Origin: Escherichia coli
Lineage (GTDB): Bacteria > Pseudomonadota > Gammaproteobacteria > Enterobacterales > Enterobacteriaceae
Reading direction: 5' to 3' (one strand)
DNA: 64,000 nucleotides
Assembly: GCF_024223415.1 (NCBI RefSeq)
Contig: NZ_CP100500.1
In this document: positions 5,580 to 54,663 of the stretch, piece after piece
How the letters are laid out: the number at the start of each line of letters is the position of its first letter
Numbering within the stretch: position 1 is the first letter of the stretch
Translations under genes and position numbers: made by a program
Notes under the pieces: generated by a model
Database searches by the model: none
Told to the model about the DNA's origin: nothing
Seen by the model: the letters and a program-made list of their open reading frames with translations, nothing else

Positions 5580-7628
5580 TTACTTGACGGGTGCGGGTTG
5601 TTCCGCGGGTCTGGCTTTTTCAAGCTTCGCCAGATCGAGTGCGATATTCACCGTCTCATCCAGATAAGGATCCGGCTCCTGGTAATCTTTCGGTAGATCA
5701 TCCAGTTTCTTCAACTCCGGTTTACCTTCGCGTTTAAAGCGTTCGTTCAAACGCGCCAGACGCGTCGCATCATCTTCATTATTCTCTTTCTCACGCACAG
5801 CGTAATTCAGAGAAACGATATTGCGCTTGTCCTTCATGGCGTTGAAGCGCGCGATATCCTTCATGATGTTCTGGAACTCAGGATCTTTCGCGATACGCGC
5901 ATTATGTTCCTTCAGCAGCTCCGGTTCAAAGGCCGTTAAATCGCCTGATTTCACATAGGTCGCGGCATCAATGCTATCCCACGGCAGCGCGTTATCTTCG
6001 AATTTCTCACCCGTTTCCGTTTCTTCATTACCCGTCGGCATGATGATGTCTGGCGTTACGCCTTTACGTTGCGTACTGCCGCCGTTAACGCGATAGAATT
6101 TCTGGATCGTGTACTGCACAGATCCCAGCGCTGGCCATTCAGGACGTAACATCTGATCGTAGATACGGTTCAATGAACGGTATTGCTGAACGGTGCCTTT
6201 ACCAAACGTCGGTTCACCCACAACCAGCGCACGACCGTAATCCTGCATTGCCGCGGCAAAAATTTCTGAAGCCGAAGCACTGAAACGGTCAACCAGTACC
6301 ACCAGCGGGCCTTTATAGAAGACCTGTCCGTCGGTATCGCTGTCTTCACGAACTTTACCGTTGTTATCGCGGACCTGAACAATAGGACCCGCAGGAATAA
6401 ACAGACCTGAGAGCGATACCGCTTCGGTCAACGCCCCACCGCCATTGCTACGCAGGTCGATGATCACACTGCTGACATTCTGTTTTTCCAGTTTCTGCAG
6501 TTGTACTTTGACATCGTCTGTCAAACCCACATAGAAGCCCGGAATATCCAGTACGCCGACTTTCTCTTTACCGACGGTCTTCACCGACATTTTAACCGCG
6601 CGGTCTTCGAGACGAATACGTTCACGGGTCAATGTTACAGTGCGGGTCTTGGTCCCTTTACCAGCAGGTAAAATTTCCAGACGAACTTTACTGCCCTTCG
6701 GCCCTTTAATTAAGGCAACCACATCATCAAGACGCCAGCCAATCACGTCAACCATCGGCTTGCCTGTTTGACCAACACCGACAATTTTGTCACCAACGCT
6801 GATAGCTTTACTCTTCGCTGCCGGACCACCTGCCACCATCGAATTGATAACGGTGTAGTCATCATCCATTTGCAGCACTGCGCCAATACCTTCCAGCGAC
6901 AAACTCATTTCAGTGTTGAACTGTTCGGTATTACGCGGGGAAAGATAGTTGGTATGCGGGTCGATTTCACGCGCAAACGCCGTCATTGCCAGCGAGAAAA
7001 CATCTTCGCTGTTGGTTTGCGCCAGACGACGAATGGCAAATTTGTAGCGGCGAGTCAGGGTTTCACGAATTTCTTTATCCGTTTTTCCTGCCAGCTTCAG
7101 GCTTAACTCGTCGAATTTGACTTTACTGTCCCACAGCGCGTTCAACTCAGCCTCGTTTTTCGGCCAGGGCGCTTTGCTGCGGTCAAGGTTATAAGTGTCG
7201 TTGCCGGTGAAATCCATCGGCTTTTCCAGTACCGACAAAGCGTACTGGTAACGTTCAAAACGACGCTTTTGCGCCAGATTGTAGAGATCGTAGAAAACGT
7301 CGAGTTTGCCTGAACGCAGTTCATCGCCTAACTCGGTTTTCTTTTTCGCGAACTGTTCAACATCGCTTGCCAACAGCACGTTGTGGCTGTAATCGAGCAG
7401 ATTCAGGTAGCGGTCAAAGATTTTGGCCGAAAATGCCTGATCGAGGTCAAACTGGCGATAATGAGAACGGGTGAAGCGCGACGTTACGCGCTCACTTACC
7501 GTCGCATGCTGCGTCTCTTCCTTTAATACCGGAATTTGATCAGCACGCGTGATATCTTCTACAGCGAAGGTCTGGCCTGCTATTGCAAGCAGGCCAGCTA
7601 ACGCGGTAAGCCTAAAAAACATGTTCAT
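5580..7628 (-). CDS. prc: tail-specific periplasmic protease Prc (Tsp)
   Basis: 682-aa product from Met MNMFFRLTALAGLLA (signal peptide), PDZ/S41 peptidase; the ORF track extends 16 codons upstream. Confidence 0.95.
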   Translation of the reverse strand: MNMFFRLTALAGLLAIAGQTFAVEDITRADQIPVLKEETQHATVSERVTSRFTRSHYRQFDLDQAFSAKIFDRYLNLLDYSHNVLLASDVEQFAKKKTELGDELRSGKLDVFYDLYNLAQKRRFERYQYALSVLEKPMDFTGNDTYNLDRSKAPWPKNEAELNALWDSKVKFDELSLKLAGKTDKEIRETLTRRYKFAIRRLAQTNSEDVFSLAMTAFAREIDPHTNYLSPRNTEQFNTEMSLSLEGIGAVLQMDDDYTVINSMVAGGPAAKSKAISVGDKIVGVGQTGKPMVDVIGWRLDDVVALIKGPKGSKVRLEILPAGKGTKTRTVTLTRERIRLEDRAVKMSVKTVGKEKVGVLDIPGFYVGLTDDVKVQLQKLEKQNVSSVIIDLRSNGGGALTEAVSLSGLFIPAGPIVQVRDNNGKVREDSDTDGQVFYKGPLVVLVDRFSASASEIFAAAMQDYGRALVVGEPTFGKGTVQQYRSLNRIYDQMLRPEWPALGSVQYTIQKFYRVNGGSTQRKGVTPDIIMPTGNEETETGEKFEDNALPWDSIDAATYVKSGDLTAFEPELLKEHNARIAKDPEFQNIMKDIARFNAMKDKRNIVSLNYAVREKENNEDDATRLARLNERFKREGKPELKKLDDLPKDYQEPDPYLDETVNIALDLAKLEKARPAEQPAPVK

Positions 7629-45189: not shown

Positions 45190-45645
45190 TTATTCAACAC
45201 CTGAATCCCCCGCAGCTTCTCTCCCCTTTATAAAACGCCCCTTCCGGAATCCAGACCGCTGCAGTGCACGACGAAGATGACCGTATACCGTCTTGTCATT
45301 CTGCCCCGTCTCTTCTGTAATCTCCGCAATACTTAAACCTCTGTAATACCGGTTCAGTACCGCTCTGCGCTCTTCCAGCGTCAACACACCTCCGGCCGCT
45401 CTCAGATTCAGCATCGACTTATTCAGAATACAGCAGGCCTCTCCGGTAAAAAGAATACGAACAATATCTGTATACTCATCATCACAGAATACAAAATAAT
45501 ATCTGAATGACCTGCCTGACTGCACCCTTCTTCTGTCTGATATGGCATCTTCTATATATCTGATTCGACTGCTTACGGTTCCAAATATCTCTCGCAGGGC
45601 TTTTTCAAAATAAATATCTCTCGTCGCCAGGATTATATCCAGCAT
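45190..45645 (-). CDS. LuxR/GerE-type HTH transcriptional regulator (prophage accessory)
   Basis: 151-aa ORF; C-terminal LTLEERRAVLNRYYRGLSIAEITEETGQNDKTVYGHLRRALQR fits the GerE/LuxR HTH pattern; Arg codons almost all AGA/AGG/CGA and frequent ATA Ile. Confidence 0.6.
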   Translation of the reverse strand: MLDIILATRDIYFEKALREIFGTVSSRIRYIEDAISDRRRVQSGRSFRYYFVFCDDEYTDIVRILFTGEACCILNKSMLNLRAAGGVLTLEERRAVLNRYYRGLSIAEITEETGQNDKTVYGHLRRALQRSGFRKGRFIKGREAAGDSGVE

Positions 45646-45705: not shown

Positions 45706-46833
45706 TCAGAACTCAAAATTCACACCAGCATTCCACGATGCGGATGACCCACCTGCAGCAACTGCAACTTTTCCTGCCACATTCTCTGTGAAACGGTAGC
45801 CCACGCCCACCGCAATGGCCTGCTCATCACGGTAACCACCAACGGCTGCTGTCGCGTTAAATTTTCCAACACTGTATGGCTGGAAAAGACCGGCCAGTGC
45901 CGCGCTCTGGGCTGCACTCTCCCTTAACTCCTTCCGGTTCTCTTTAATCTGCTCCTGCATATTATTCATTCTCTCTGTCGCCATCTTCTGCCAGGCTTCC
46001 GTCAAATCCAGACGATGACTGTTATTCCTTATCGCTGCTGTATTTGAGGCTATTGCTGCATCCGTCTGCGCCCTGTTCTTCACAAGCACATCGCTGAGAT
46101 GTTCTGCCTGGCTTTTCACCTCGTTACGGACAGTACGCACACTGCTGTCTGTATATGTACGCGTCTCGTCCAGAACATCCGACTTCACCGCATCCGTGTA
46201 TTCCTGCGCAGAAGCCCTGGCAGCTGTAATATTACCGTTAAGTCTGTTTTCTGCCGATTCCACTCGACTCTTAGCATCAGCAACAGCATCACGGTAGACA
46301 GCTCCTATCTCACCGCGCAGGGCATCCCCCGACTCCCGTACAGCATCTGCAATGGCGTTGTCCATCTGTCCTTTTGTGGCCGCATCACTATCCTTAACAC
46401 CATCTGAAACATTTATAATCCGGCGGGTTTCCGGTGCACCATCAACTGAAAATCCATATCCTGAAGGACCGGCCCCTACAGAAAGTACATTGCTTTCTCC
46501 ATTCACCTGAGAGCCATACCCCAGAGCGACACTGTTGTCTGCATTAAAAACAGCTGTATTATTTCCCACAGCCATGGATTTATCCGCATCCCAAATTATT
46601 GCATCGGAACCAACAGCAAAGTTTTTTCCAGTAACACTACCATCACTGTTAAAATTTCCATTTCTGTCAACCACAGTTGCACTTTCAAGTGAATGAGTGC
46701 CATTATCAATCCAGATAATACCCGTCGATGACTCAGTAAGTGTTTTATGAGCCAAAGCCTGAGATGAGAGCAGCAGGGCCACACTCACTGCCAGCGCGCT
46801 TTTCTTTAAAAAAGCATCACGTCTTTTAAGCAT
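45706..46833 (-). CDS. trimeric autotransporter adhesin, Eib-like (E. coli immunoglobulin-binding protein family) candidate
   Basis: 375-aa product from MLKRRDAFLKKSALAVSVALLLSSQALA (signal peptide; SD AGGAG 9 nt upstream); coiled-coil stalk; C-terminal YadA-like anchor ...WNAGVNFEF; Eib genes are known prophage cargo; the ORF track extends 18 codons upstream. Confidence 0.7.
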   Translation of the reverse strand: MLKRRDAFLKKSALAVSVALLLSSQALAHKTLTESSTGIIWIDNGTHSLESATVVDRNGNFNSDGSVTGKNFAVGSDAIIWDADKSMAVGNNTAVFNADNSVALGYGSQVNGESNVLSVGAGPSGYGFSVDGAPETRRIINVSDGVKDSDAATKGQMDNAIADAVRESGDALRGEIGAVYRDAVADAKSRVESAENRLNGNITAARASAQEYTDAVKSDVLDETRTYTDSSVRTVRNEVKSQAEHLSDVLVKNRAQTDAAIASNTAAIRNNSHRLDLTEAWQKMATERMNNMQEQIKENRKELRESAAQSAALAGLFQPYSVGKFNATAAVGGYRDEQAIAVGVGYRFTENVAGKVAVAAGGSSASWNAGVNFEF

Positions 46834-47181
46834 TCTGTTATTCTCCTGTATTATTACTTCACCAGCCAGAACGGTAGTGCGGAGCAAAAATACAGTGATA
46901 AGAATCCTCTTTTATTAATTTAATAATATCAGGAATATTATTGTGTATAATATGCGCCCTCAATTTAAGCAGCAGAAAAGCAATGACGCGAAAATCATTA
47001 AAATACATAAAGATAAAACATCATAACTATAATTATAATAAGCGCGCTTATTTTAGCATCTGAACATTTAAAGTACTGCTATCACAAAACAATAAAAATC
47101 CTGGGTAATATCTCTGATGATTGAATGAGAAATTCACGATGTCTGGTGAGAATTCTGTTCAAAACGAGGAATGCAGACGTA

Positions 47182-47496: not shown

Positions 47497-48072
47497 TCAC
47501 CATCCAACCCTGTACGCCAGAATGGTTTCACTGTCACTCAGTTCTGCTATTGCCTTTTTCATCTCCCTTTGCCTTATATGTATTTCAAGGCCTTTCCTGA
47601 ACATCGCTTTACCAGCAGCATCACTCAGGGATATCAGTTCATCTGCCGTCATCGGTACATCATTATTCTCTGCGTCCGTCCAGAAAAATCCTTCCGGCAA
47701 CACTCCGCCTCTGGCCGCTGATGCCGACATTCCAAGACGTGTCATGGCTTCCTTTCCATAATCCCATTTCCGTCCTCTGTGCTCAAAAACATACCCTGAC
47801 GCCTCCATCGCATCACGCCAGGCATTTATCTCCGCGTTTTTCATCCTGCGTGCTTCTTCCACAGCCATATCATCATTTGCCCGGTACTCACCTACCGGCC
47901 CTGCATCACCTCTTATGCAGGCTTCAAATATTTCACGACCGTAAGACTCAGGATCATCCGCACTTGCTGTAAATACACATTCTGTTTCCGCGTCTGAAAA
48001 CTTCACTATACAGTTTATGGTCGTATGACCCCTGTCAGCCCACACTGGTGACGTGATTTTATCGACCTTCAT
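47497..48072 (-). CDS. hypothetical phage protein at the tail-fibre-assembly (tfa) position
   Basis: 191-aa ORF immediately downstream of the stf-like gene with SD GGGGAGAAA; does not resemble lambda Tfa as far as I can recall; assignment is positional. Confidence 0.4.
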   Translation of the reverse strand: MKVDKITSPVWADRGHTTINCIVKFSDAETECVFTASADDPESYGREIFEACIRGDAGPVGEYRANDDMAVEEARRMKNAEINAWRDAMEASGYVFEHRGRKWDYGKEAMTRLGMSASAARGGVLPEGFFWTDAENNDVPMTADELISLSDAAGKAMFRKGLEIHIRQREMKKAIAELSDSETILAYRVGW

Positions 48073-48086
48073 TCATTTCTCCCCTG

Positions 48087-49892
48087 TCACCGTATTCTCT
48101 GAAACAGGCCCCAAATCGTCCCAATGATATTATTCACTGTCATGTTAGTTGTGCATAACATCCATGTACCAAGCATAGGATTGCCAAATAAAAAGCGGAT
48201 ATCTGTAAGTTTATCCGATGACGACGACACAATAACGGCCTGTCTGATACGATACCCGGGTATTTCACGGGTATTTGTTACCTCATGATTTCGTTCTATG
48301 ATCCCCAGAACATAAGACCCCACGGAATAAACACTTCCGACGCTCGCTGGCTGCCCCGGCTGTCCCTGTGGTCCTGCCGGGCCGCGTTCACCTGTATACC
48401 CTCTTGGCCCCTGAGGACCTGCCGGGCCGCGTTCACCTGTATCCCCCTTTAGTCCCTGTGGACCTGCCGGACCGCGTTCACCTGTATCGCCCTTTGGTCC
48501 CTGTGGACCACGCTCCCCCTGGGCTCCCAGCTCTTTCCATTCAGACCAGGGGCCATTACCGGTAAAATTACCAGTAACAGTTCTTACGAACTTTCGTGGT
48601 GGGTTCCAGGTTGTATATTCATGCTGGCAATATCCCCATGCACCAACTCTTACCTGAAGATAACCCGCTCTCTGAATCGGATAATTATTTTCTCGTGTAG
48701 CCCCACTGTCTGATGGCTGATAATAATCACCCTGATCGGTCACTCGTCCCAGTCGGTTCAGATCACCATTCAGCAGTTGTCCACGGGCTGACTCTCCTCT
48801 TGGTCCCTGAGGACCTGCCGGACCGCGTGCTCCTGTTTCACCTTTTGCTCCCTGTGGACCTGTCGGACCGCGTTCACCTGTTTCACCTTTTGGTCCCTGT
48901 GGTCCTGCCGGGCCGCGTTCACCTGTTTCACCCTTTGCTCCCTGTGGACCTTCCGGGCCACGTTCACCTGTATCCCCCTTTGGTCCCTGAGGACCTGCCG
49001 GGCCACGTTCACCTGTATCGCCCTTTGATCCCTGTGGACCTGCCGGGCCGCGTTCACCTGTATCCCCCTTTGGTCCCTGTGGACCTCCCGGATCTCCTTT
49101 ATCCCCCTTAGGGCCTTTTTCTCCTCGCTCACCCTTTTCTCCCTTCAGACCCTGAGGGCCTTCCGGACCACGTGCACCTGTTTCGCCCTTTGCTCCCTGT
49201 GGACCTGCCGGGCCGCGTTCACCTGTTTCGCCCTTTGCTCCCTGTGGACCTGCCGGGCCGCGTGCACCTGTTTCACCCTTTGGTCCCTGTGGACCTGCCG
49301 GGCCGCGTTCACCTGTATCGCCCTTTAGTCCCTGTGGACCTGCCGGACCGCGTTCACCTGTTTCACCTTTTGGTCCCTGTGGTCCTGCCGGGCCACGTGC
49401 TCCTGTTTCACCTTTTGGCCCCTGTGGCCCGGTAATGCCTCTTTCACCACGAGCGCCGGTATCCCCTTTCTCTCCTCGTGGTCCCCGGGCAGATGCTGCT
49501 CGTTTCCGGGCTTCCTCCGCCTCAGATGCCGCGGACTCTGCTCTGTGCAGTATGGACTGCACCACAGCCTCCAGCTCTGACAACGCCTTCGGATAATAAG
49601 GAGCATCTTCCAGCTCCATCAGAAATTTATTCAGTGTTCCCGGTGAAGAATCCTCCCTGACCACGATATCTCCCACATACGAAGGACGGTAACCTTCTGT
49701 ATTGAGTGTCACCCTGTATATTCCTGGCTCCACATCCATACTGTAACTCCCCGTCTCTTCCGGCATGCCATAAGCCACTGTCGTGGCGATGACTGTCTCG
49801 CTGGTTCTCTTCGCTTTCAGCTCAATAATGCATCCCGGTACCGGTTTTCCGGTTCCGTCCCTCAGCACGCCTGAAATTTTTACAGCCGCCAT
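48087..49892 (-). CDS. stf: side tail fibre protein (Stf-like) with collagen-like G-X-Y repeats
   Basis: 601-aa ORF; N-terminus [18 protein letters not shown]... resembles lambda Stf N-domain; two long blocks of GPxGxKGxTGxRG repeats; distinct C-terminal domain. Confidence 0.8.
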
Positions 49893-49964
49893 ACTCGCTC
49901 CATAAAAAATAATCCCGCAAAATTGCGGGCGTCGTCATTCATTTACAATCGGGTGTTTTTATGA

Positions 49965-50210
49965 TTACTTCACGCACGAAACTTTCGTAAACATATCTTC
50001 ACTCACCCACTGACCATAAAATCTCGGAGCTGATACTTTATACACAGTGCCGCTTTTCGTTTCTATTTTCCCTGTAAGATCTACCGTATAAGCTCGCTGT
50101 AAAACCCCGGGACTCAGCACACCGGTGCACCGGACTCTCTCCGTAACGGAACGGTACCCCGCGCAACCTGATACAAGAAACAGCAAAAAAGTGCAGACGA
50201 TTATTTTCAT
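49965..50210 (-). CDS. small lipoprotein, Cor-like candidate
   Basis: 81-aa ORF with signal peptide and lipobox LVSGC; sits at the lom/cor position; no homology recalled. Confidence 0.5.
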   Translation of the reverse strand: MKIIVCTFLLFLVSGCAGYRSVTERVRCTGVLSPGVLQRAYTVDLTGKIETKSGTVYKVSAPRFYGQWVSEDMFTKVSCVK

Positions 50211-50231
50211 TACATGCCCTCAACATAACTA

Positions 50232-50894
50232 TCAGTACGCATCATAAATTTCTGCATTTATGTAATAACAGAGGTTATTAACAACACCTGAATTATCATT
50301 GGGCGCCGCTACGTTATCTTCAGCAAAAGTTGACTGACGCCATAACTGTGAGTTTCTGGCATTAAAACTGGCGGTATACCAGTAATAACTCTCCCCTTCC
50401 TGAACTGTCGTCCACTGGGTACACCCCGGCATTACGGCCACATCATGTCCCACACTGATCGGTACATCCTTTTCCCATATTCGCGTCATTTTTACTTCCA
50501 GTGGCAGCATTTCCGTGTTCCAGACCACCCTGCCATGACTGTCGCACAACTGTATTCCCCATTGCGGCCATACATTCACCATGTTGGCAAAAACATAAAC
50601 AACATATGTGCTGTCCTGTTCCATGCCCGGCTCCTGCCCTGTACCAGCGCTGAAAATGTCATACTGCCAGGTACCGTTAAGCTGAACCATTTCACCATGG
50701 AAGGACTGATTACCGCTTATCTGTTTAATAAAAATCACGCAACGATAATTCGTCGGCACCCCAGTGTCGATAAACTGCATCACCGCATCACGCGCACTCA
50801 GTGTGAAATGAAAACGGCGCACAAGGTTCAGTGGCGGCGCAACAGGTGATATCCATTCTCTCCCCCGCTCATCAGTTAATTTAAGTGCAAACAT
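50232..50894 (-). CDS. hypothetical tail-associated protein
   Basis: 220-aa ORF; start ATG overlaps stop of upstream 86-aa ORF (ATGA). Confidence 0.55.
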   Translation of the reverse strand: MFALKLTDERGREWISPVAPPLNLVRRFHFTLSARDAVMQFIDTGVPTNYRCVIFIKQISGNQSFHGEMVQLNGTWQYDIFSAGTGQEPGMEQDSTYVVYVFANMVNVWPQWGIQLCDSHGRVVWNTEMLPLEVKMTRIWEKDVPISVGHDVAVMPGCTQWTTVQEGESYYWYTASFNARNSQLWRQSTFAEDNVAAPNDNSGVVNNLCYYINAEIYDAY

Positions 50895-51154
50895 CAGATC
50901 CCCCTTATCATGACCAGCACGGGTCTTAACCAGCTTGTGTTGGCATAGTGCACTGTCCAGCCGGATACACTGGCACTGGTATGACTTCCCTGACCGTTAA
51001 TCAGAATGGCCGGTGAACAGACTTCCAGACGCCAGCCCTGCAAAGGAGTATAAGAACGCTGCCCCGTCCCTTCAGTGATCACATCCAGCACCCCTGTTGG
51101 GTTTATTTCATGTGTCACAAGGCGCCCTTTGCGCCATACCCGGACTCCGAACAT
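50894..51154 (-). CDS. hypothetical small protein coupled to J
   Basis: 86-aa ORF; start overlaps J stop (TAATG). Confidence 0.5.
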   Translation of the reverse strand: MFGVRVWRKGRLVTHEINPTGVLDVITEGTGQRSYTPLQGWRLEVCSPAILINGQGSHTSASVSGWTVHYANTSWLRPVLVMIRGI

Positions 51155-54100
51155 TACAGTCTCCCCAGTCGTACTCTTAACACATTGTTATCGTCATATA
51201 CGTCGATTCGCTCGCCATTGAAAAACAGGCGGCCTGCGCCGGGCCTTCCTGAGTTAATTTCAAGGCTGCCGTTTCTTGATAAACGCCACCCCGGACTACC
51301 GGAATGAAAATTATCTGACCGGATATCTCCCGTCACTCTGGCAAAATCCACGGTCAGTTTTTTCATGAAAACATCATTCATGAACAGCTGATCACCCTGA
51401 GCCACAAACAAAGGTGTTGTATTGCCATTTTCCGGGTTAATCATCGCAATACGATCTGCCTGCATCAGGATCTGACTCTGAATTCCGTCAGACGTATTTT
51501 CGATTCCGGCACCAATACCTGCAATATAGAGACGTCCATCCCGTGTCTGCTGCAGCTTCACAGCCCACATGCTGTTCAGGTTCCGGCGCGTGTCCTCCTG
51601 AACTTTCTGTATCTGCTCAATGCTGGCATTCCAGGATCCCAGTTTTTTATCCGTGCTCTGTGTGATCTGACTTCCCTTATCATCAACATACTGTCTGATC
51701 TGCGCTATCTGTCGGCTGTTCTCCTCCGTGCTCCTGCTTACTGTCTGCCGGATTTCGCTTCCCATCCTGTCAACTTTTCTGTCAACTTCCGCAATGGCCA
51801 TTGACTGTTCAGCGCTCTTTTTCGCCACAACAGTACTTATTTGCGCACTTTTATCATCAACATACTGCCTGACCTGCGCTATCTGTCGGCTGTTCTCCTC
51901 CGTGCTCCTGCTCACTGTCTGCCGGATTTCACTGCTCACGCTGTCAACTTTCCTGTCGACTTTCGCAATGGCCAGCGACTGTTCACCGCTCTTTTTCGCC
52001 ACCAGTTCCGTTATGCTGTTTTCAGACGCCGTGATTTTTTTCGTCACCTCTGCGATATCACGCTCCGCACGCTGCCTCACATCTTTCTCCAGCTGCGTCA
52101 TTTCGCGGTTAATCGCATTCTCCAGTTGCTCAACTTCAGTGCGCCGTGCAGAGGCATCAATGCGTTCATTGATCTCCCGTCCCAGATGCGTTTTATTTAT
52201 CGCCCCCCTGAAAAAATTAAGGTAACCGGCAGGATCATTACTCGCCCGACCGACTGCCTCCACGAATGCCGATTTACCGACAGTGTTAACACTGCGGATA
52301 TAAAAGTAATAATCATGGCCAGGTTTAATATTCTGGCCGGAGACAAGCCACTGACTTCCGGTACCAAGATAACGGGCTGTGGTTTCAACCTGCCTGATAT
52401 CGGTAATCCGCGTTTCCGAGAACCAGAACTCAAACTGTACCGTCGGATCGTAAACCGCAAGATGCGGCGTGGCGGTTATCTGAAAATAGCCCGGCGTCAG
52501 CTCAATCCGCGACGGCGCTGCCGGTGCGGCAATCCGGAACGATACCGACGCCGGGTCTCCCTGCTGCCCCCGGGCATTTACTGCCCGGACTGTCAGCCTG
52601 TAGTTCCCCGGCGCCAGCTGCCTGAAGCGGTATGTGGTTTCCGTCGTCCGGGCCGTGCTGACCAGCCGCTCACTGCCATCATCCGCGGCCACGGTCAGGC
52701 GAAGCAGGAAGCTCACGCCCTTCACCACCTTCGGCGTGTCCCAGCGCGCCAGCACCTGATATTCCCCGCTGTCTGCGGTGACTTCTGCGGTCAGGTGCTG
52801 CACCGCTGGCGGCGTGACACCATTCACCGTTCCGCTCTGGTCGCCGTCAAAGTGCGCCCCGTTATCCACGATGGCCTCTTTTTCCGGTACATGCTGCACG
52901 GCAGTGATGGCATACGTGCCGTCGTCGTTCTCACGGATACTCACGCAGCGGAACAGGCGCTGGCGCAGCGTCGGCAGCTTCAGCCCCCACACGCTGTACT
53001 CGGCAACGCCGTCAGGAACCCGGCTCACTTTTACCTTCACGCCGTCGGTGACGGACTGAACCTCCACGCTGACCGGATTGCCACTTCCGTCAACCAGACT
53101 TATCAGCGTGGTACCGGAGGATGGCAGCGTGATTTCACGGTCGAGCGTCAGCGTCCGGGTCTGGCTGTTCACCGCCAGCACACGACCACCGGTGCTGATA
53201 CCGGCATAGTCATCATCACAGATTTCAATGACATCGCCCGGTACATGGCGAAGCCCTTCAGCACCCACGCTGAAATCCACGGTCTGCGTCTCCAGCAGTT
53301 CTGTTTTAATCAGCCACAGCCCGGCGCGGTGTGCCTGCCCCCGGCTGGTACAGCCAAAGGCATCCATCTTCGTGACGTTACGACCGTAACGGGCAATGGC
53401 CTGCGTGTCCTCCACAAGCTCTGTCGCCGTCTCCTGGCCGTTATCCGGGTCACTCCAGTTCACCTCAACGGCATTATGGCGGTCCTTCAGGGCGCTGAAG
53501 CTGTAGCGGAACGGCGCGCCATCATCCGGCATCACCACATTACTGCGGTTATAGGTCCACACCTTATCCGACGGTCGGTCCTGCACGAACGTCAGCGTCT
53601 GCCCGTTCCATACCGGCATACAGCGCATCGCCGAGCAGAAATCACTGAGCACATCCCACGCCTTACGCTGCCTGGTCAGCCAGGCATTACAGGTGATGCG
53701 CGGCTCCGTGCCACCAGAGCCGTCCGGCACCGACTGGTCGCAGTACTGGCCGATGACATACAGCGCCCATTTGTCCACATCCGCTGCGCCAACACGTTTC
53801 CCCATGCCGTAGCGCGGGTGGGTCAGCATATCCCACAGACACCAGGCCGGGTTATCGCTGTATGCCGGTTTAAACGTTCCGTCCCAGATACCGCTGTATT
53901 GCCGCGTCTGCGGGTTATAGTTCGACGGCACCTGCAGAATGCGCCCGCGAAGATGATAATTACGGCTCACCTGCTGGCTGCCGAACTGCTCCGAATCCAC
54001 CTGCACACCGACCAGTGCCGTGTTCGGGTAGCACTGTTTCACATCGATGATTTCGGTGTATGACGACCAGAGCGTTTTGTTCTGCAGCTGGTCTGTGGTG

Positions 54101-54663
54101 CTGTCCGGCGTCATCCTGCGCATCCGGATACTGAACGGGCGCGGCGGCAGGTTACCCACCACCACCGGGGCCAGATACTGCGAGGTGGTTTTGCCCTTAA
54201 TGGTGATGTCTTTTTCCGTTAACCAGCGACCGTTACGCTGTATCTGAACCAGCAGGCGGACTTCCGACGGATTCCGGTCCCCCTTTGAGGTGGTTTCCAC
54301 CAGTGCCTGCACACCGAAGGTCAGGCGCAGACGGTCGATGTTTGCCGACGTGATGGTCCGGGTAATCGGCGTGTCGTACTTCACTTCCGTACCCAGCACC
54401 GTCTCGGAGCCGGAGGATTCAAATCCCTCCGGCGGCGTCTGCTCCTGCTCACCGGCCCGGAATACCACCGTGACGCCGGATATATTGGTATTCCCCTCAC
54501 TGTCCAGCACCGGCGTACCGTTCAGCAGCACGCTTTTTAATCCATCCACCGGTCCTTGTATCGGCCCTTCGCTGATGACATCGATCACACTCAGCAACTG
54601 CGTGGACTTCAGGTTGTCCTTCGCTTCGCGCGGGGTATGCCCCTTACTGCTGCCTTTACCCAT
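51154..54663 (-). CDS. J: tail tip / host specificity protein J (central fibre), variant C-terminus
   Basis: 1169-aa ORF; N-terminal ~900 aa match lambda gpJ as I recall it ([24 protein letters not shown]...); C-terminal ~270 aa differ and include two 58-aa tandem repeats. Confidence 0.92.
51678..52025. repeat. 174-bp tandem duplication inside J
   Basis: Two adjacent ~174-bp copies (starting 51678 and 51852), ~90% identical, encoding [20 protein letters not shown]... Confidence 0.8.

What the first reader, a model, noticed from the sequence alone, without database searches (positions are those of the whole stretch)
49965..50210. Small lipoprotein at the lom/cor position: candidate superinfection-exclusion factor
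An 81-aa ORF with a lipobox (LVSGC) lies between the tail-tip genes and the tail-fibre gene, where lambdoid phages carry outer-membrane morons (lom, or cor which inactivates FhuA). Size and lipoprotein nature fit a Cor-like exclusion protein, but I recall no sequence homology to support it.
Basis: inference. Interest (0 to 1): 0.45.

Follow-up and report, generated by a model that had tools for sequence, protein, structure and literature searches.

The report
Divergent Cor-type phage exclusion lipoprotein
The small lipoprotein gene is a real, mostly unnamed, distant relative of the phage protein Cor, which stops other phages from using the same cell-surface receptor; which receptor this version blocks is unknown.

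Summary
The ORF is real: minus strand 50210..49965, 81 aa, lipobox VSGC (Cys16), Shine-Dalgarno GAGGG 6 nt upstream, terminator-like hairpin just downstream.

- NCBIfam Cor model: E=1.2e-6, end to end, but 28.4 bits against a cut-off of 31.
- PHROG Cor family: E=8e-7.
- Profile-profile comparison with 55 named Cor proteins: 97.7% probability, E=2e-12.
- Gene order matches N15, phi80 and HK022: J, ~90-aa protein (phrog_557), ~220-aa protein (phrog_425), lipoprotein, terminator, side tail fibre.

It belongs to a small outlying clade of five representatives among 1.84 billion. The clade shares three insertions and lacks the AGYPF motif present in every FhuA-linked Cor examined.

The two upstream proteins are thought to form the receptor-binding tip. 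They are 54-76% identical among the FhuA coliphages T1, N15, phi80 and KarlBarth, but only 20-30% identical to this cassette.

I conclude it is a Cor-family superinfection-exclusion lipoprotein matched to this prophage's own receptor-binding module. FhuA as the target is possible but unproven, and a different outer-membrane protein is at least as likely.

RefSeq complete E. coli genomes leave the ORF uncalled. Elsewhere it is labelled "uncharacterised".

This is a new member of a known kind, of moderate interest.

The parts
49965..50210 (-). Cor-family lipoprotein gene (81 aa; mature protein 66 aa from Cys16; conserved Cys28 and Cys79)
   Evidence: ORF. Cor HMM and PHROG hits. Alignments. hhalign. 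AF2 model with pLDDT 80.7.
50163..50210 (-). Signal peptide (codons 1-15) plus lipobox Cys16 (codon 50165..50163). Ala at +2 suggests sorting to the outer membrane.
   Evidence: Read from the sequence. Gly15-Cys16 is conserved in 12 of 13 aligned Cor types, and Cys16 in all 13. The sorting rule is established knowledge (Lol avoidance needs Asp at +2).
50217..50221 (-). Shine-Dalgarno GAGGG, 6 nt before the ATG
   Evidence: Sequence.
49904..49929 (-). Terminator-like hairpin CCCGCAATTTTGCGGG followed by ATTATTTTTT, between the lipoprotein gene and the tail-fibre gene
   Evidence: N15 and phi80 have annotated terminators at the same place. The fold of the whole intergenic stretch is not exceptional (z=-1.3).
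50232..50894 (-). 220-aa protein, phrog_425 ('membrane associated protein'). Candidate receptor-binding protein that caps the tail tip.
   Evidence: PHROG E=3e-27. 53% identical to the sibling cassette in L007 and 21-24% to N15, phi80, T1 and KarlBarth. The role comes from modelling in PMC12309495 and from bioRxiv 10.64898/2026.04.02.716166.
50894..51154 (-). 86-aa protein (74 aa as PGAP calls it), phrog_557 ('outer membrane protein'). Small accessory protein of the tail-tip module.
   Evidence: PHROG E=2.8e-4. 63% identical to L007 and 20-30% to FhuA phages. PGAP call.
51154..54663 (-). Tail-tip protein J (1169 aa). Its C-terminal end ...[15 protein letters not shown] is shared with N15 J and with the tail fibre of the L007 phage.
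   Evidence: PGAP annotates it as gpJ.
48087..49892 (-). Side tail-fibre gene (601 aa) with collagen-like repeats. It marks the downstream boundary of the cassette.
   Evidence: Pfam phage_tail_N and Collagen. 45-bp repeats.

Best explanation
The ORF encodes a divergent member of the Cor family of phage superinfection-exclusion lipoproteins. It is the last gene of a three-gene cassette placed directly after the tail-tip gene J. The other two genes encode an 86-aa protein and a 220-aa 'hand-like' protein. Published modelling and comparative genomics assign these two to the receptor-binding tip.

Proposed mechanism (inferred, not shown):
1. The precursor is exported and lipid-modified at Cys16. 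[quoted passage not shown]
2. Cys28 and Cys79 form a disulphide that fixes a small five-stranded beta fold.
3. From the periplasmic side the protein binds the outer-membrane protein that this phage's own 220-aa protein recognises from outside. This makes the receptor unusable, as shown structurally for T5 Llp on FhuA and Rtp45 on LptD.
4. The lysogen, or infected cell, is then protected from phages using that receptor, and progeny are not lost on cell debris.

The identity of the receptor is open. FhuA is the family default, but the evidence here does not favour it over another outer-membrane protein.
For: Homology:
- NF047972 E=1.2e-6 end to end.
- PHROG 1119 E=8e-7.
- hhalign 97.7%, E=2.2e-12 over 77 columns.
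- Lipobox Cys, Cys28, Phe74 and Cys79 are invariant across all 13 Cor types aligned.

Synteny:
- J, phrog_557, phrog_425, lipoprotein, terminator, tail fibre, exactly as in N15, phi80, HK022, Midgardsormr38 and Fostie.
- Relatives P0004, P0005 and P0008 also sit beside a tail-tip gene and/or a phrog_425-like gene.
- The three genes co-diverge as a unit: 63%, 53% and 47% identity to L007.

Fold:
- AF2 model pLDDT 80.7, all beta.
- The best BFVD matches are lipoproteins of T5-like phages and a 'super-infection exclusion protein' (E 2e-3 to 4e-2, TM 0.56-0.67).

Literature:
- The cor cassette downstream of J is linked to the receptor (PMC13164509, PMC8594841).
- Periplasmic exclusion lipoproteins act on the cognate receptor (PMC9586334, PMC12685063).
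Against: - No phenotype or expression data exist.
- The score is below the curated Cor cut-off (28.4 against 31 bits). The closest relative, P0004, does not hit the model at all.
- The structural match to Llp is no better than to many generic SH3-like domains.
- No convincing promoter lies in front of the gene. Only 21 nt separate it from the preceding gene, against about 110 nt in N15 and phi80. Expression from the prophage, as opposed to late lytic expression, is therefore uncertain.
- One relative (P0007) lies away from any recognisable tail gene.
Confidence: 0.7

Rival explanations
1. It is a functional equivalent of classical Cor: it inactivates FhuA and excludes T1, T5, phi80 and HK022-type phages.
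For: - It belongs to the Cor family.
- The full three-gene cassette has so far been reported only with FhuA-dependent phages (PMC13164509, citing Wietzorrek 2006).
- Cor proteins of T1 and N15 both act on FhuA although they are only 36% identical. Low identity alone therefore does not exclude FhuA.
Against: - The proteins thought to bind the receptor are 54-64% (about 225 aa) and 54-76% (about 100 aa) identical among T1, N15, phi80 and KarlBarth. The window's versions are 21-24% and 20-30% identical to them, in the same host species.
- The AGYPF motif is present in every FhuA-linked Cor aligned and invariant or nearly so in 55 named Cor proteins. Here it is replaced by VSAPRF.
- T1, KarlBarth, SSU5 and POCJ13 Cor score 56-78 bits on the Cor model, against 28 for this protein.
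- phrog_425 relatives are also linked to BtuB and BamA (PMC13164509, PMC12309495).
Confidence: 0.3
2. It is an accessory factor for assembly or function of the tail-tip receptor-binding module, such as a chaperone or tip component, and not an exclusion factor.
For: It is tightly linked and co-diverges with the two tip genes, and sits 21 nt after the 220-aa gene. The functions of the upstream proteins are still inferred only from modelling.
Against: A lipoprotein signal peptide sends it out of the cytoplasm, where tails assemble. It is homologous to Cor, for which exclusion is experimentally established (Uc-Mass 2004 and Arguijo-Hernandez 2018, as cited in the papers read). In T1 and KarlBarth, cor is transcribed from the opposite strand to the tip genes.
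Confidence: 0.07
3. It is another kind of small lipoprotein moron unrelated to receptor blocking, such as a Bor-like serum-resistance factor or an o-spanin-like lysis protein.
For: Small prophage lipoproteins are common. There is a weak PHROG hit to Rz-like spanin (E=0.48).
Against: The spanin hit covers only the signal peptide. The gene is not in a lysis cassette. The full-length matches are to Cor.
Confidence: 0.05
4. It is not a functional gene, either a chance ORF or a decaying remnant.
For: PGAP does not call it in the RefSeq complete genome inspected, and all nine full-length hits list only two hypothetical proteins under the match. Truncated 54-aa remnants exist in deleted prophages.
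Against: It has a good Shine-Dalgarno sequence and an intact lipobox, and two cysteines are conserved across about 30%-identical homologues. An 81-aa homologue at 47% identity keeps the same synteny in another phage type. The remnants result from large deletions of the prophage, not decay of this gene.
Confidence: 0.03

Closest known systems
Cor of N15, phi80, HK022 and mEp167 (NCBIfam NF047972, PHROG 1119)
   Same: - 77-81-aa lipoprotein precursor with lipobox Gly-Cys.
- Two conserved cysteines in the mature part; shared W68, V69 and F74.
- End-to-end alignment.
- Identical position: after J, phrog_557 and phrog_425, before a terminator and the side tail fibre.
   Different: - 29-37% identity.
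- Three small insertions shared only with its own clade.
- AGYPF motif replaced.
- 28.4 bits against the 31-bit cut-off.
- 21-nt rather than about 110-nt gap to the preceding gene.
- Paired with tip proteins only 20-30% identical to the FhuA type.
Cor of lytic FhuA phages T1 and KarlBarth (Drexlerviridae, Dhillonvirus)
   Same: Same family and same three-gene neighbourhood. The level of identity to N15 Cor (36-42%) is similar to that of the window protein (29%).
   Different: T1 and KarlBarth Cor score 56-59 bits on the Cor model and keep AGYPF. Their tip proteins remain 54-64% identical to those of N15. Their cor is on the opposite strand to J.
T5 Llp (PDB 8A60 chain B), FhuA-blocking lytic conversion lipoprotein
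   Different: No usable sequence similarity (E=0.5, signal peptide only). The structural score is not distinctive among SH3-like folds.
Rtp45 (exclusion lipoprotein of phage Rtp acting on LptD; PDB 9RPS)
   Same: Same logic: a small periplasmic-face lipoprotein encoded beside the receptor-binding locus downstream of J, which blocks the cognate receptor.
   Different: No sequence relationship was detected (not among hits at E<=10). It belongs to a locus type with an unrelated receptor-binding protein.
Lom of lambda (Ail/OmpX family) at the same genome position
   Same: A Lom-like gene occupies this slot in the Stx2a phage L021.
   Different: Lom is a beta-barrel outer-membrane protein of about 200 aa, not an 81-aa lipoprotein. 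There is no similarity.

Membership tests
Cor (NCBIfam NF047972 equivalog 'phage exclusion lipoprotein Cor') | Score at or above the curated cut-off of 31 bits | tested here: not met
   28.4 bits, E=1.2e-6, residues 2-80 on model 3-77/78. For comparison: T1 55.8, KarlBarth 58.8, SSU5 77.5, POCJ13 71.5, Midgardsormr38 129.8. Clade members: P0008 33.5, P0007 20.8, P0005 15.5, P0004 no hit.
Cor family in the broad sense (homologous superfamily) | Statistically significant full-length homology to named Cor proteins | tested here: met
   hhalign 97.7% probability, E=2.2e-12, 77 columns. PHROG 1119 E=8e-7. tblastn hits only annotated cor genes in the phage collection.
Cor family in the broad sense | Lipoprotein signal peptide with lipobox Cys and a non-Asp residue at +2 (outer-membrane sorting) | tested here: met
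   MKIIVCTFLLFLVSG|CAG. Cys16 is invariant in alignment A6. No dedicated lipoprotein predictor was available.
Cor family in the broad sense | Two conserved cysteines in the mature protein (probable disulphide) and the C-terminal W-V...F...C block | tested here: met
   C28, F74 and C79 are invariant, and V69 is nearly so, in 13 diverse sequences. C28, W68, F74 and C79 are invariant in 60 sequences.
Cor family in the broad sense | Position in the cor cassette: directly after J, phrog_557 and phrog_425, before the side tail fibre | tested here: met
   compared with N15, phi80, HK022, Midgardsormr38 and Fostie.
FhuA-directed Cor (functional class) | AGYPF motif shared by all FhuA-linked Cor proteins examined | tested here: not met
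   The window has VSAPRF and its clade has ASPKI, YDKAF, DSPQF and DPAF. A57, G58, P60 and F61 are invariant in 55 named Cor proteins. That this motif contacts FhuA is my inference, not an established fact.
FhuA-directed Cor (functional class) | Companion tip proteins of the FhuA type (more than 30% identity over full length, the criterion of bioRxiv 10.64898/2026.04.02.716166) | tested here: not met
   The 220-aa protein is 21-24% identical to N15, phi80, T1 and KarlBarth, which are 54-64% identical to one another.
FhuA-directed Cor (functional class) | Exclusion of FhuA-dependent phages, or loss of FhuA function, when expressed | not testable with these tools
   Requires plating and uptake assays.
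Llp-type fold (T5 Llp, PDB 8A60_B) | Structural similarity of the mature protein to Llp | tested here: inconclusive
Lom / Ail outer-membrane proteins | Eight-stranded beta-barrel of about 200 aa (Pfam Ail_Lom) | tested here: not met
   No Pfam hit at E<=1; 81 aa.
Rz1 / o-spanin lipoproteins | Location in the lysis cassette with an i-spanin partner; homology beyond the signal peptide | tested here: not met
   phrog_456 E=0.48, residues 1-28 only. The neighbours are tail genes.

The most novel reading that the evidence does not exclude
The cassette (86 aa, 220 aa and lipoprotein) is a previously unrecognised receptor-specificity allele. On this reading the 220-aa protein binds an E. coli outer-membrane protein other than FhuA, and the lipoprotein is its matched periplasmic blocker. 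The module would be portable between lambda-like siphovirus tails (the window) and short-tailed Sepvirinae-like phages (L007). Candidate receptors, by analogy only, are another TonB-dependent transporter, BamA or LptD.
Probability: 0.4. Interest if true: 0.55.

Novelty: new member of a known kind. Interest (0 to 1): 0.3.

Why it matters
Cor-type lipoproteins decide which phages can superinfect a lysogen, and they switch off nutrient transporters such as FhuA. They therefore affect phage-therapy host range and iron uptake.

This clade falls under the annotation threshold. RefSeq complete genomes skip the gene, and other records call it "uncharacterised", although it is on roughly a thousand public E. 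coli contigs.

Because exclusion lipoproteins are matched to the phage's own receptor-binding protein, identifying the target of this one would also reveal the receptor of an uncharacterised prophage tip allele. It would add a data point to the current effort to predict phage receptors from the locus downstream of gpJ.

If the target is FhuA after all, the pair would show how far both partners can drift while keeping the same receptor.

Tried and rejected
- **Pfam:** no family at E<=1 for the ORF.
- **Word-indexed protein search with the single protein:** only three near-identical clusters. The exhaustive search of 1.84 billion representatives added four real relatives and one spurious repeat protein, P0006.
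- **tblastn against plasmids:** no match.
- **Viral-contig scan with the clade alignment:** The scan with the single protein found only two near-identical loci.
- **PDB sequence search with the family profile:** Llp at E=0.5 (signal peptide only). An odd hit to insect prepro-PTTH 5aoq (E=0.01) I regard as chance, a cysteine-framed small beta protein.
- **Foldseek against PDB:** nothing below E=0.2.
- **My first argument for a non-FhuA target was wrong.** I assumed that about 30% identity to 'canonical' Cor implied a different target. T1 Cor is only 36% identical to N15 Cor and both act on FhuA. I dropped that argument. I rely instead on the tip-protein identities, the Cor-model scores and the motif.
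- **Fusing the lipoprotein to FhuA for a pseudo-complex prediction:** considered and rejected. The tool returns no inter-chain error or coordinates, and no positive control was affordable.
- **Own promoter:** none at the scan threshold in front of the gene. There is only a TATGAT about 35 nt upstream with a poor -35, which I do not count as evidence.
- **dN/dS against the 47% homologue:** not attempted, because synonymous sites would be saturated.

Full report
**1. Observation**

The window carries the right arm of a lambda-like prophage in an E. coli chromosome. The region 49700-51200 is 99.7-99.9% identical to eight complete E. coli genomes over its whole length, and to a ninth over 83% (9 of 5426 genomes).

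On the minus strand the gene order is:

| Gene | Coordinates | Notes |
|---|---|---|
| J | 54663..51154 | tail tip |
| 86-aa ORF | 51154..50894 | phrog_557 |
| 220-aa ORF | 50894..50232 | phrog_425 |
| reported ORF, 81 aa | 50210..49965 | the finding |
| tail fibre, 601 aa | 49892..48087 | collagen-like repeats |
| tail-fibre assembly protein | 48072..47497 | DUF4376 |
| YadA-like adhesin | 46887..45706 | |

The reported ORF starts MKIIVCTFLLFLVSG|CAG. This is a short basic N-terminus, a hydrophobic core, and a lipobox VSGC with Cys16 followed by Ala.
- GAGGG lies 6 nt before the ATG.
- The preceding gene ends 21 nt upstream.
- The hairpin CCCGCAATTTTGCGGG plus a T-run follows the stop.

**2. 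Homology to Cor**

Pfam has nothing for the ORF. Other evidence does:
- The NCBIfam model for 'phage exclusion lipoprotein Cor' matches end to end at E=1.2e-6. The score is 28.4 bits, just under the curated 31-bit cut-off.
- PHROG 1119 (Cor) matches at E=8e-7, and an unnamed PHROG (27799) at 1e-8.
- tblastn against 50,697 phage records returns only annotated cor genes: Erwinia phage Midgardsormr38 at 36% and Escherichia phage Fostie at 31%.
- Alignment with N15, phi80, HK022, Midgardsormr38 and Fostie Cor is collinear, at 30-36% identity.
- With T1, KarlBarth, SSU5 and POCJ13 added, the lipobox Cys, Cys28, Phe74 and Cys79 remain invariant.
- Profile against profile, its clade (5 sequences) against 55 named Cor proteins gives 97.7% probability and E=2.2e-12.

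**3. Synteny**

N15, phi80, HK022, Midgardsormr38 and Fostie all have the same order: J, a gene of about 100 aa ('outer membrane protein'), a gene of about 225 aa ('membrane associated protein'), cor, and the tail fibre. N15 and phi80 also have an annotated terminator after cor. The window reproduces this order.

The literature recognises it as the 'cor cassette' of FhuA-dependent phages T1, HK022, N15, ES18 and phi80 (PMC13164509, citing Wietzorrek et al. 2006).

AlphaFold-Multimer work proposes that the 'membrane associated' hand-like protein caps the tail tip and binds the receptor. The predicted receptor is FhuA in a Dhillonvirus and BamA in a Stx Traversvirus (PMC12309495).

**4. How unusual this copy is**

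An exhaustive HMMER pass over 1.84 billion cluster representatives found only five real relatives:
- the window protein's own cluster;
- P0004 (47% identical, also E. coli);
- P0007, P0008 and P0005 (32-38%).

A profile search retrieved 265 Cor-family clusters. Nearly all are named 'cor protein' or 'phage exclusion lipoprotein Cor', and they are 25-39% identical to the window protein. Nothing bridges the gap.

The clade shares three insertions absent from every other Cor type: one residue before Cys28, two near position 37, and one near position 63. It also lacks the AGYPF motif found in N15, phi80, HK022, Midgardsormr38, T1 and KarlBarth. Ala, Gly, Pro and Phe of that motif are invariant in 55 named Cor proteins.

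Scores on the NCBIfam Cor model (window value):

| Protein | Bits |
|---|---|
| T1 | 55.8 |
| KarlBarth | 58.8 |
| POCJ13 | 71.5 |
| SSU5 | 77.5 |
| Midgardsormr38 | 129.8 |
| P0008 (clade) | 33.5 |
| Window protein (clade) | 28.4 |
| P0007 (clade) | 20.8 |
| P0005 (clade) | 15.5 |
| P0004 (clade) | no hit |

This explains the annotation gap. In E. coli TUM9803, PGAP leaves the gene uncalled between the tail-fibre gene and the 220-aa gene. The nine full-length RefSeq hits all list just two hypothetical proteins. Elsewhere the identical protein is 'Uncharacterised protein' (CAK0666264.1, SPW73963.1; 222 contigs). A near-identical variant is a UniRef 'Lipoprotein' on 777 contigs.

**5. The receptor question**

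I first thought 30% identity to Cor implied a new target. That argument fails. T1 Cor is only 36% identical to N15 Cor, and both act on FhuA.

The companion proteins are more informative:

| Comparison | ~225-aa protein | ~100-aa protein |
|---|---|---|
| Among T1, N15, phi80, KarlBarth | 54-64% | 54-76% |
| Window against those four | 21-24% | 20-30% |

T1, N15 and phi80 are established FhuA phages. KarlBarth is a BASEL Dhillonvirus with the full cassette, and PMC13164509 reports that BASEL phages with the full cassette all use FhuA. These four phages are otherwise unrelated, and their Cor proteins have drifted to 36-45% identity. The window's cassette is in the same host species.

The window's 220-aa protein shares only its first 130-165 residues, weakly, with several groups:
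- FhuA-type proteins;
- proteins of Tempevirinae, which PMC13164509 reports to use BtuB;
- proteins of short-tailed Stx phages, which use BamA.

There is a precedent for such divergence going with a receptor switch. T5 pb5 (FhuA) and the BtuB-binding proteins of its relatives are about 30% identical (bioRxiv 10.64898/2026.04.02.716166).

The cassette also moves as a unit. In contig L007 it follows a 421-aa tail-fibre protein whose C-terminus (...VYDQNGVVRVRIGRL) resembles that of J (...[15 protein letters not shown]). The three proteins there are 63%, 53% and 47% identical to the window's. L007 is an E. coli contig resembling short-tailed Stx-type (Sepvirinae) phages. I base that on its virion and tail-fibre proteins and their resemblance to the Stx2a phage locus L021.

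In L024 (P0005) the trio is present directly after J, but with the lipoprotein gene first. In L012 (P0008) the lipoprotein gene overlaps the end of a different phrog_425-like gene.

Together this points to a distinct specificity allele. It does not identify the receptor, and FhuA is not excluded.

**6. Structure**

AlphaFold2 with a 60-sequence alignment gives pLDDT 80.7 overall and 88-93 over most of the mature part. The model has five beta strands.
- Foldseek against PDB finds nothing significant.
- Against BFVD, the top matches are lipoproteins of T5-like Proteus and Providencia phages, a 'super-infection exclusion protein' of phage CEC_Kaz_2018, and a DT571/2 protein (E 2e-3 to 4e-2, TM 0.56-0.67).

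This is compatible with the published view that Cor and Llp share a fold. It is not discriminating.

**7. Mechanism**

*Shown by sequence:*
- a lipoprotein precursor with Ala at +2;
- two conserved cysteines;
- Cor homology;
- cassette position;
- a downstream terminator-like hairpin.

*Inferred from established knowledge* of Lgt/LspA/Lnt and Lol, and from the Llp-FhuA and Rtp45-LptD structures (PMC9586334, PMC12685063):
- anchoring in the inner leaflet of the outer membrane;
- a Cys28-Cys79 disulphide;

*Unknown:*
- the receptor;
- whether the gene is expressed in the lysogen. No convincing promoter lies in front of it.

**8. Verdict**

This is a Cor-family exclusion-lipoprotein candidate in the canonical cor slot.

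It is a new member of a known kind. It belongs to a rare, mostly unannotated outlying clade tied to a very divergent tip module. The open and testable point is whether it marks a non-FhuA receptor specificity.

- Interest: 0.3.
- Non-FhuA receptor reading: probability 0.4, interest 0.55 if true.

Noticed in passing
window 49965-50210 compared with L001 9194-9532 (NZ_CP135671.1): PGAP leaves this ORF uncalled in RefSeq complete E. coli genomes. All nine full-length hits list only two hypothetical proteins under the match, although the identical protein is deposited elsewhere as 'Uncharacterised protein'.
   Followed up: partly
window 48087-49892 (minus strand); repeats at 48362-48509 and 48800-49427: The side tail-fibre gene contains about 17 copies of a 45-bp unit encoding collagen-like G-X-Y repeats (Pfam Collagen E=1.5e-48). 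The homologous gene is shorter in other strains (529 aa in TUM9803; 454-616 aa in loci L013-L015), so repeat number appears to vary.
   Followed up: partly
window 51677-52002 (within J, minus strand): A 174-bp unit is present 1.9 times at 90% identity. This duplicates a 58-aa coiled-coil-like segment in the C-terminal third of J (…[26 protein letters not shown]…).
   Followed up: no
window 45706-46887 and 45190-45645 (minus strand): A YadA-like trimeric autotransporter adhesin (YadA_anchor E=2.4e-16) lies at the prophage end. It is followed by a 151-aa ORF (45190-45645) at the position where the related prophage in TUM9803 has a gene that PGAP names a sigma-factor-like HTH protein. This is a probable adhesin moron next to the tail-fibre genes.
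   Followed up: no
L013-L015 (GCA_916164885.1 and others), gene at 6001-6165: A 54-aa remnant of the lipoprotein (P0003) occurs in deleted prophages. There a 284-aa chimeric protein combines head-decoration (HDPD), Minor_tail_Z and Phage_Tail_Tip pieces. A large deletion appears to run from the head genes into the lipoprotein gene.
   Followed up: partly
L001 4307-7589 (E. coli TUM9803): In this strain the tail-fibre assembly gene (DUF4376) of the same prophage is split by an IS66-family element (ISCro1: tnpA, tnpB, transposase).
   Followed up: no
L007 3016-4632 and L021 4714-6427: In short-tailed Stx-type phages, the slot after the tail-fibre gene holds one of two arrangements. One is the window-type trio followed by a hok/gef toxin gene (L007). 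The other is a different small-plus-188-aa pair followed by a Lom/Ail-like outer-membrane protein instead of a Cor-like lipoprotein (L021). The 188-aa ORF looks truncated relative to the 615-nt tblastn match.
   Followed up: partly
L016 2501-3744 (T1) and L017 2498-3712 (KarlBarth): In the lytic phages T1 and KarlBarth, cor is on the opposite strand to J and the two tip genes (convergent). In the temperate phages and in the window it is co-oriented with them. This suggests different expression timing.
   Followed up: no
PDB 5aoq chain L: The Cor-family profile gives its best PDB sequence hit (E=0.01, 56 columns) to insect prepro-prothoracicotropic hormone. This is probably a chance match of cysteine-framed small beta proteins.
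   Followed up: no
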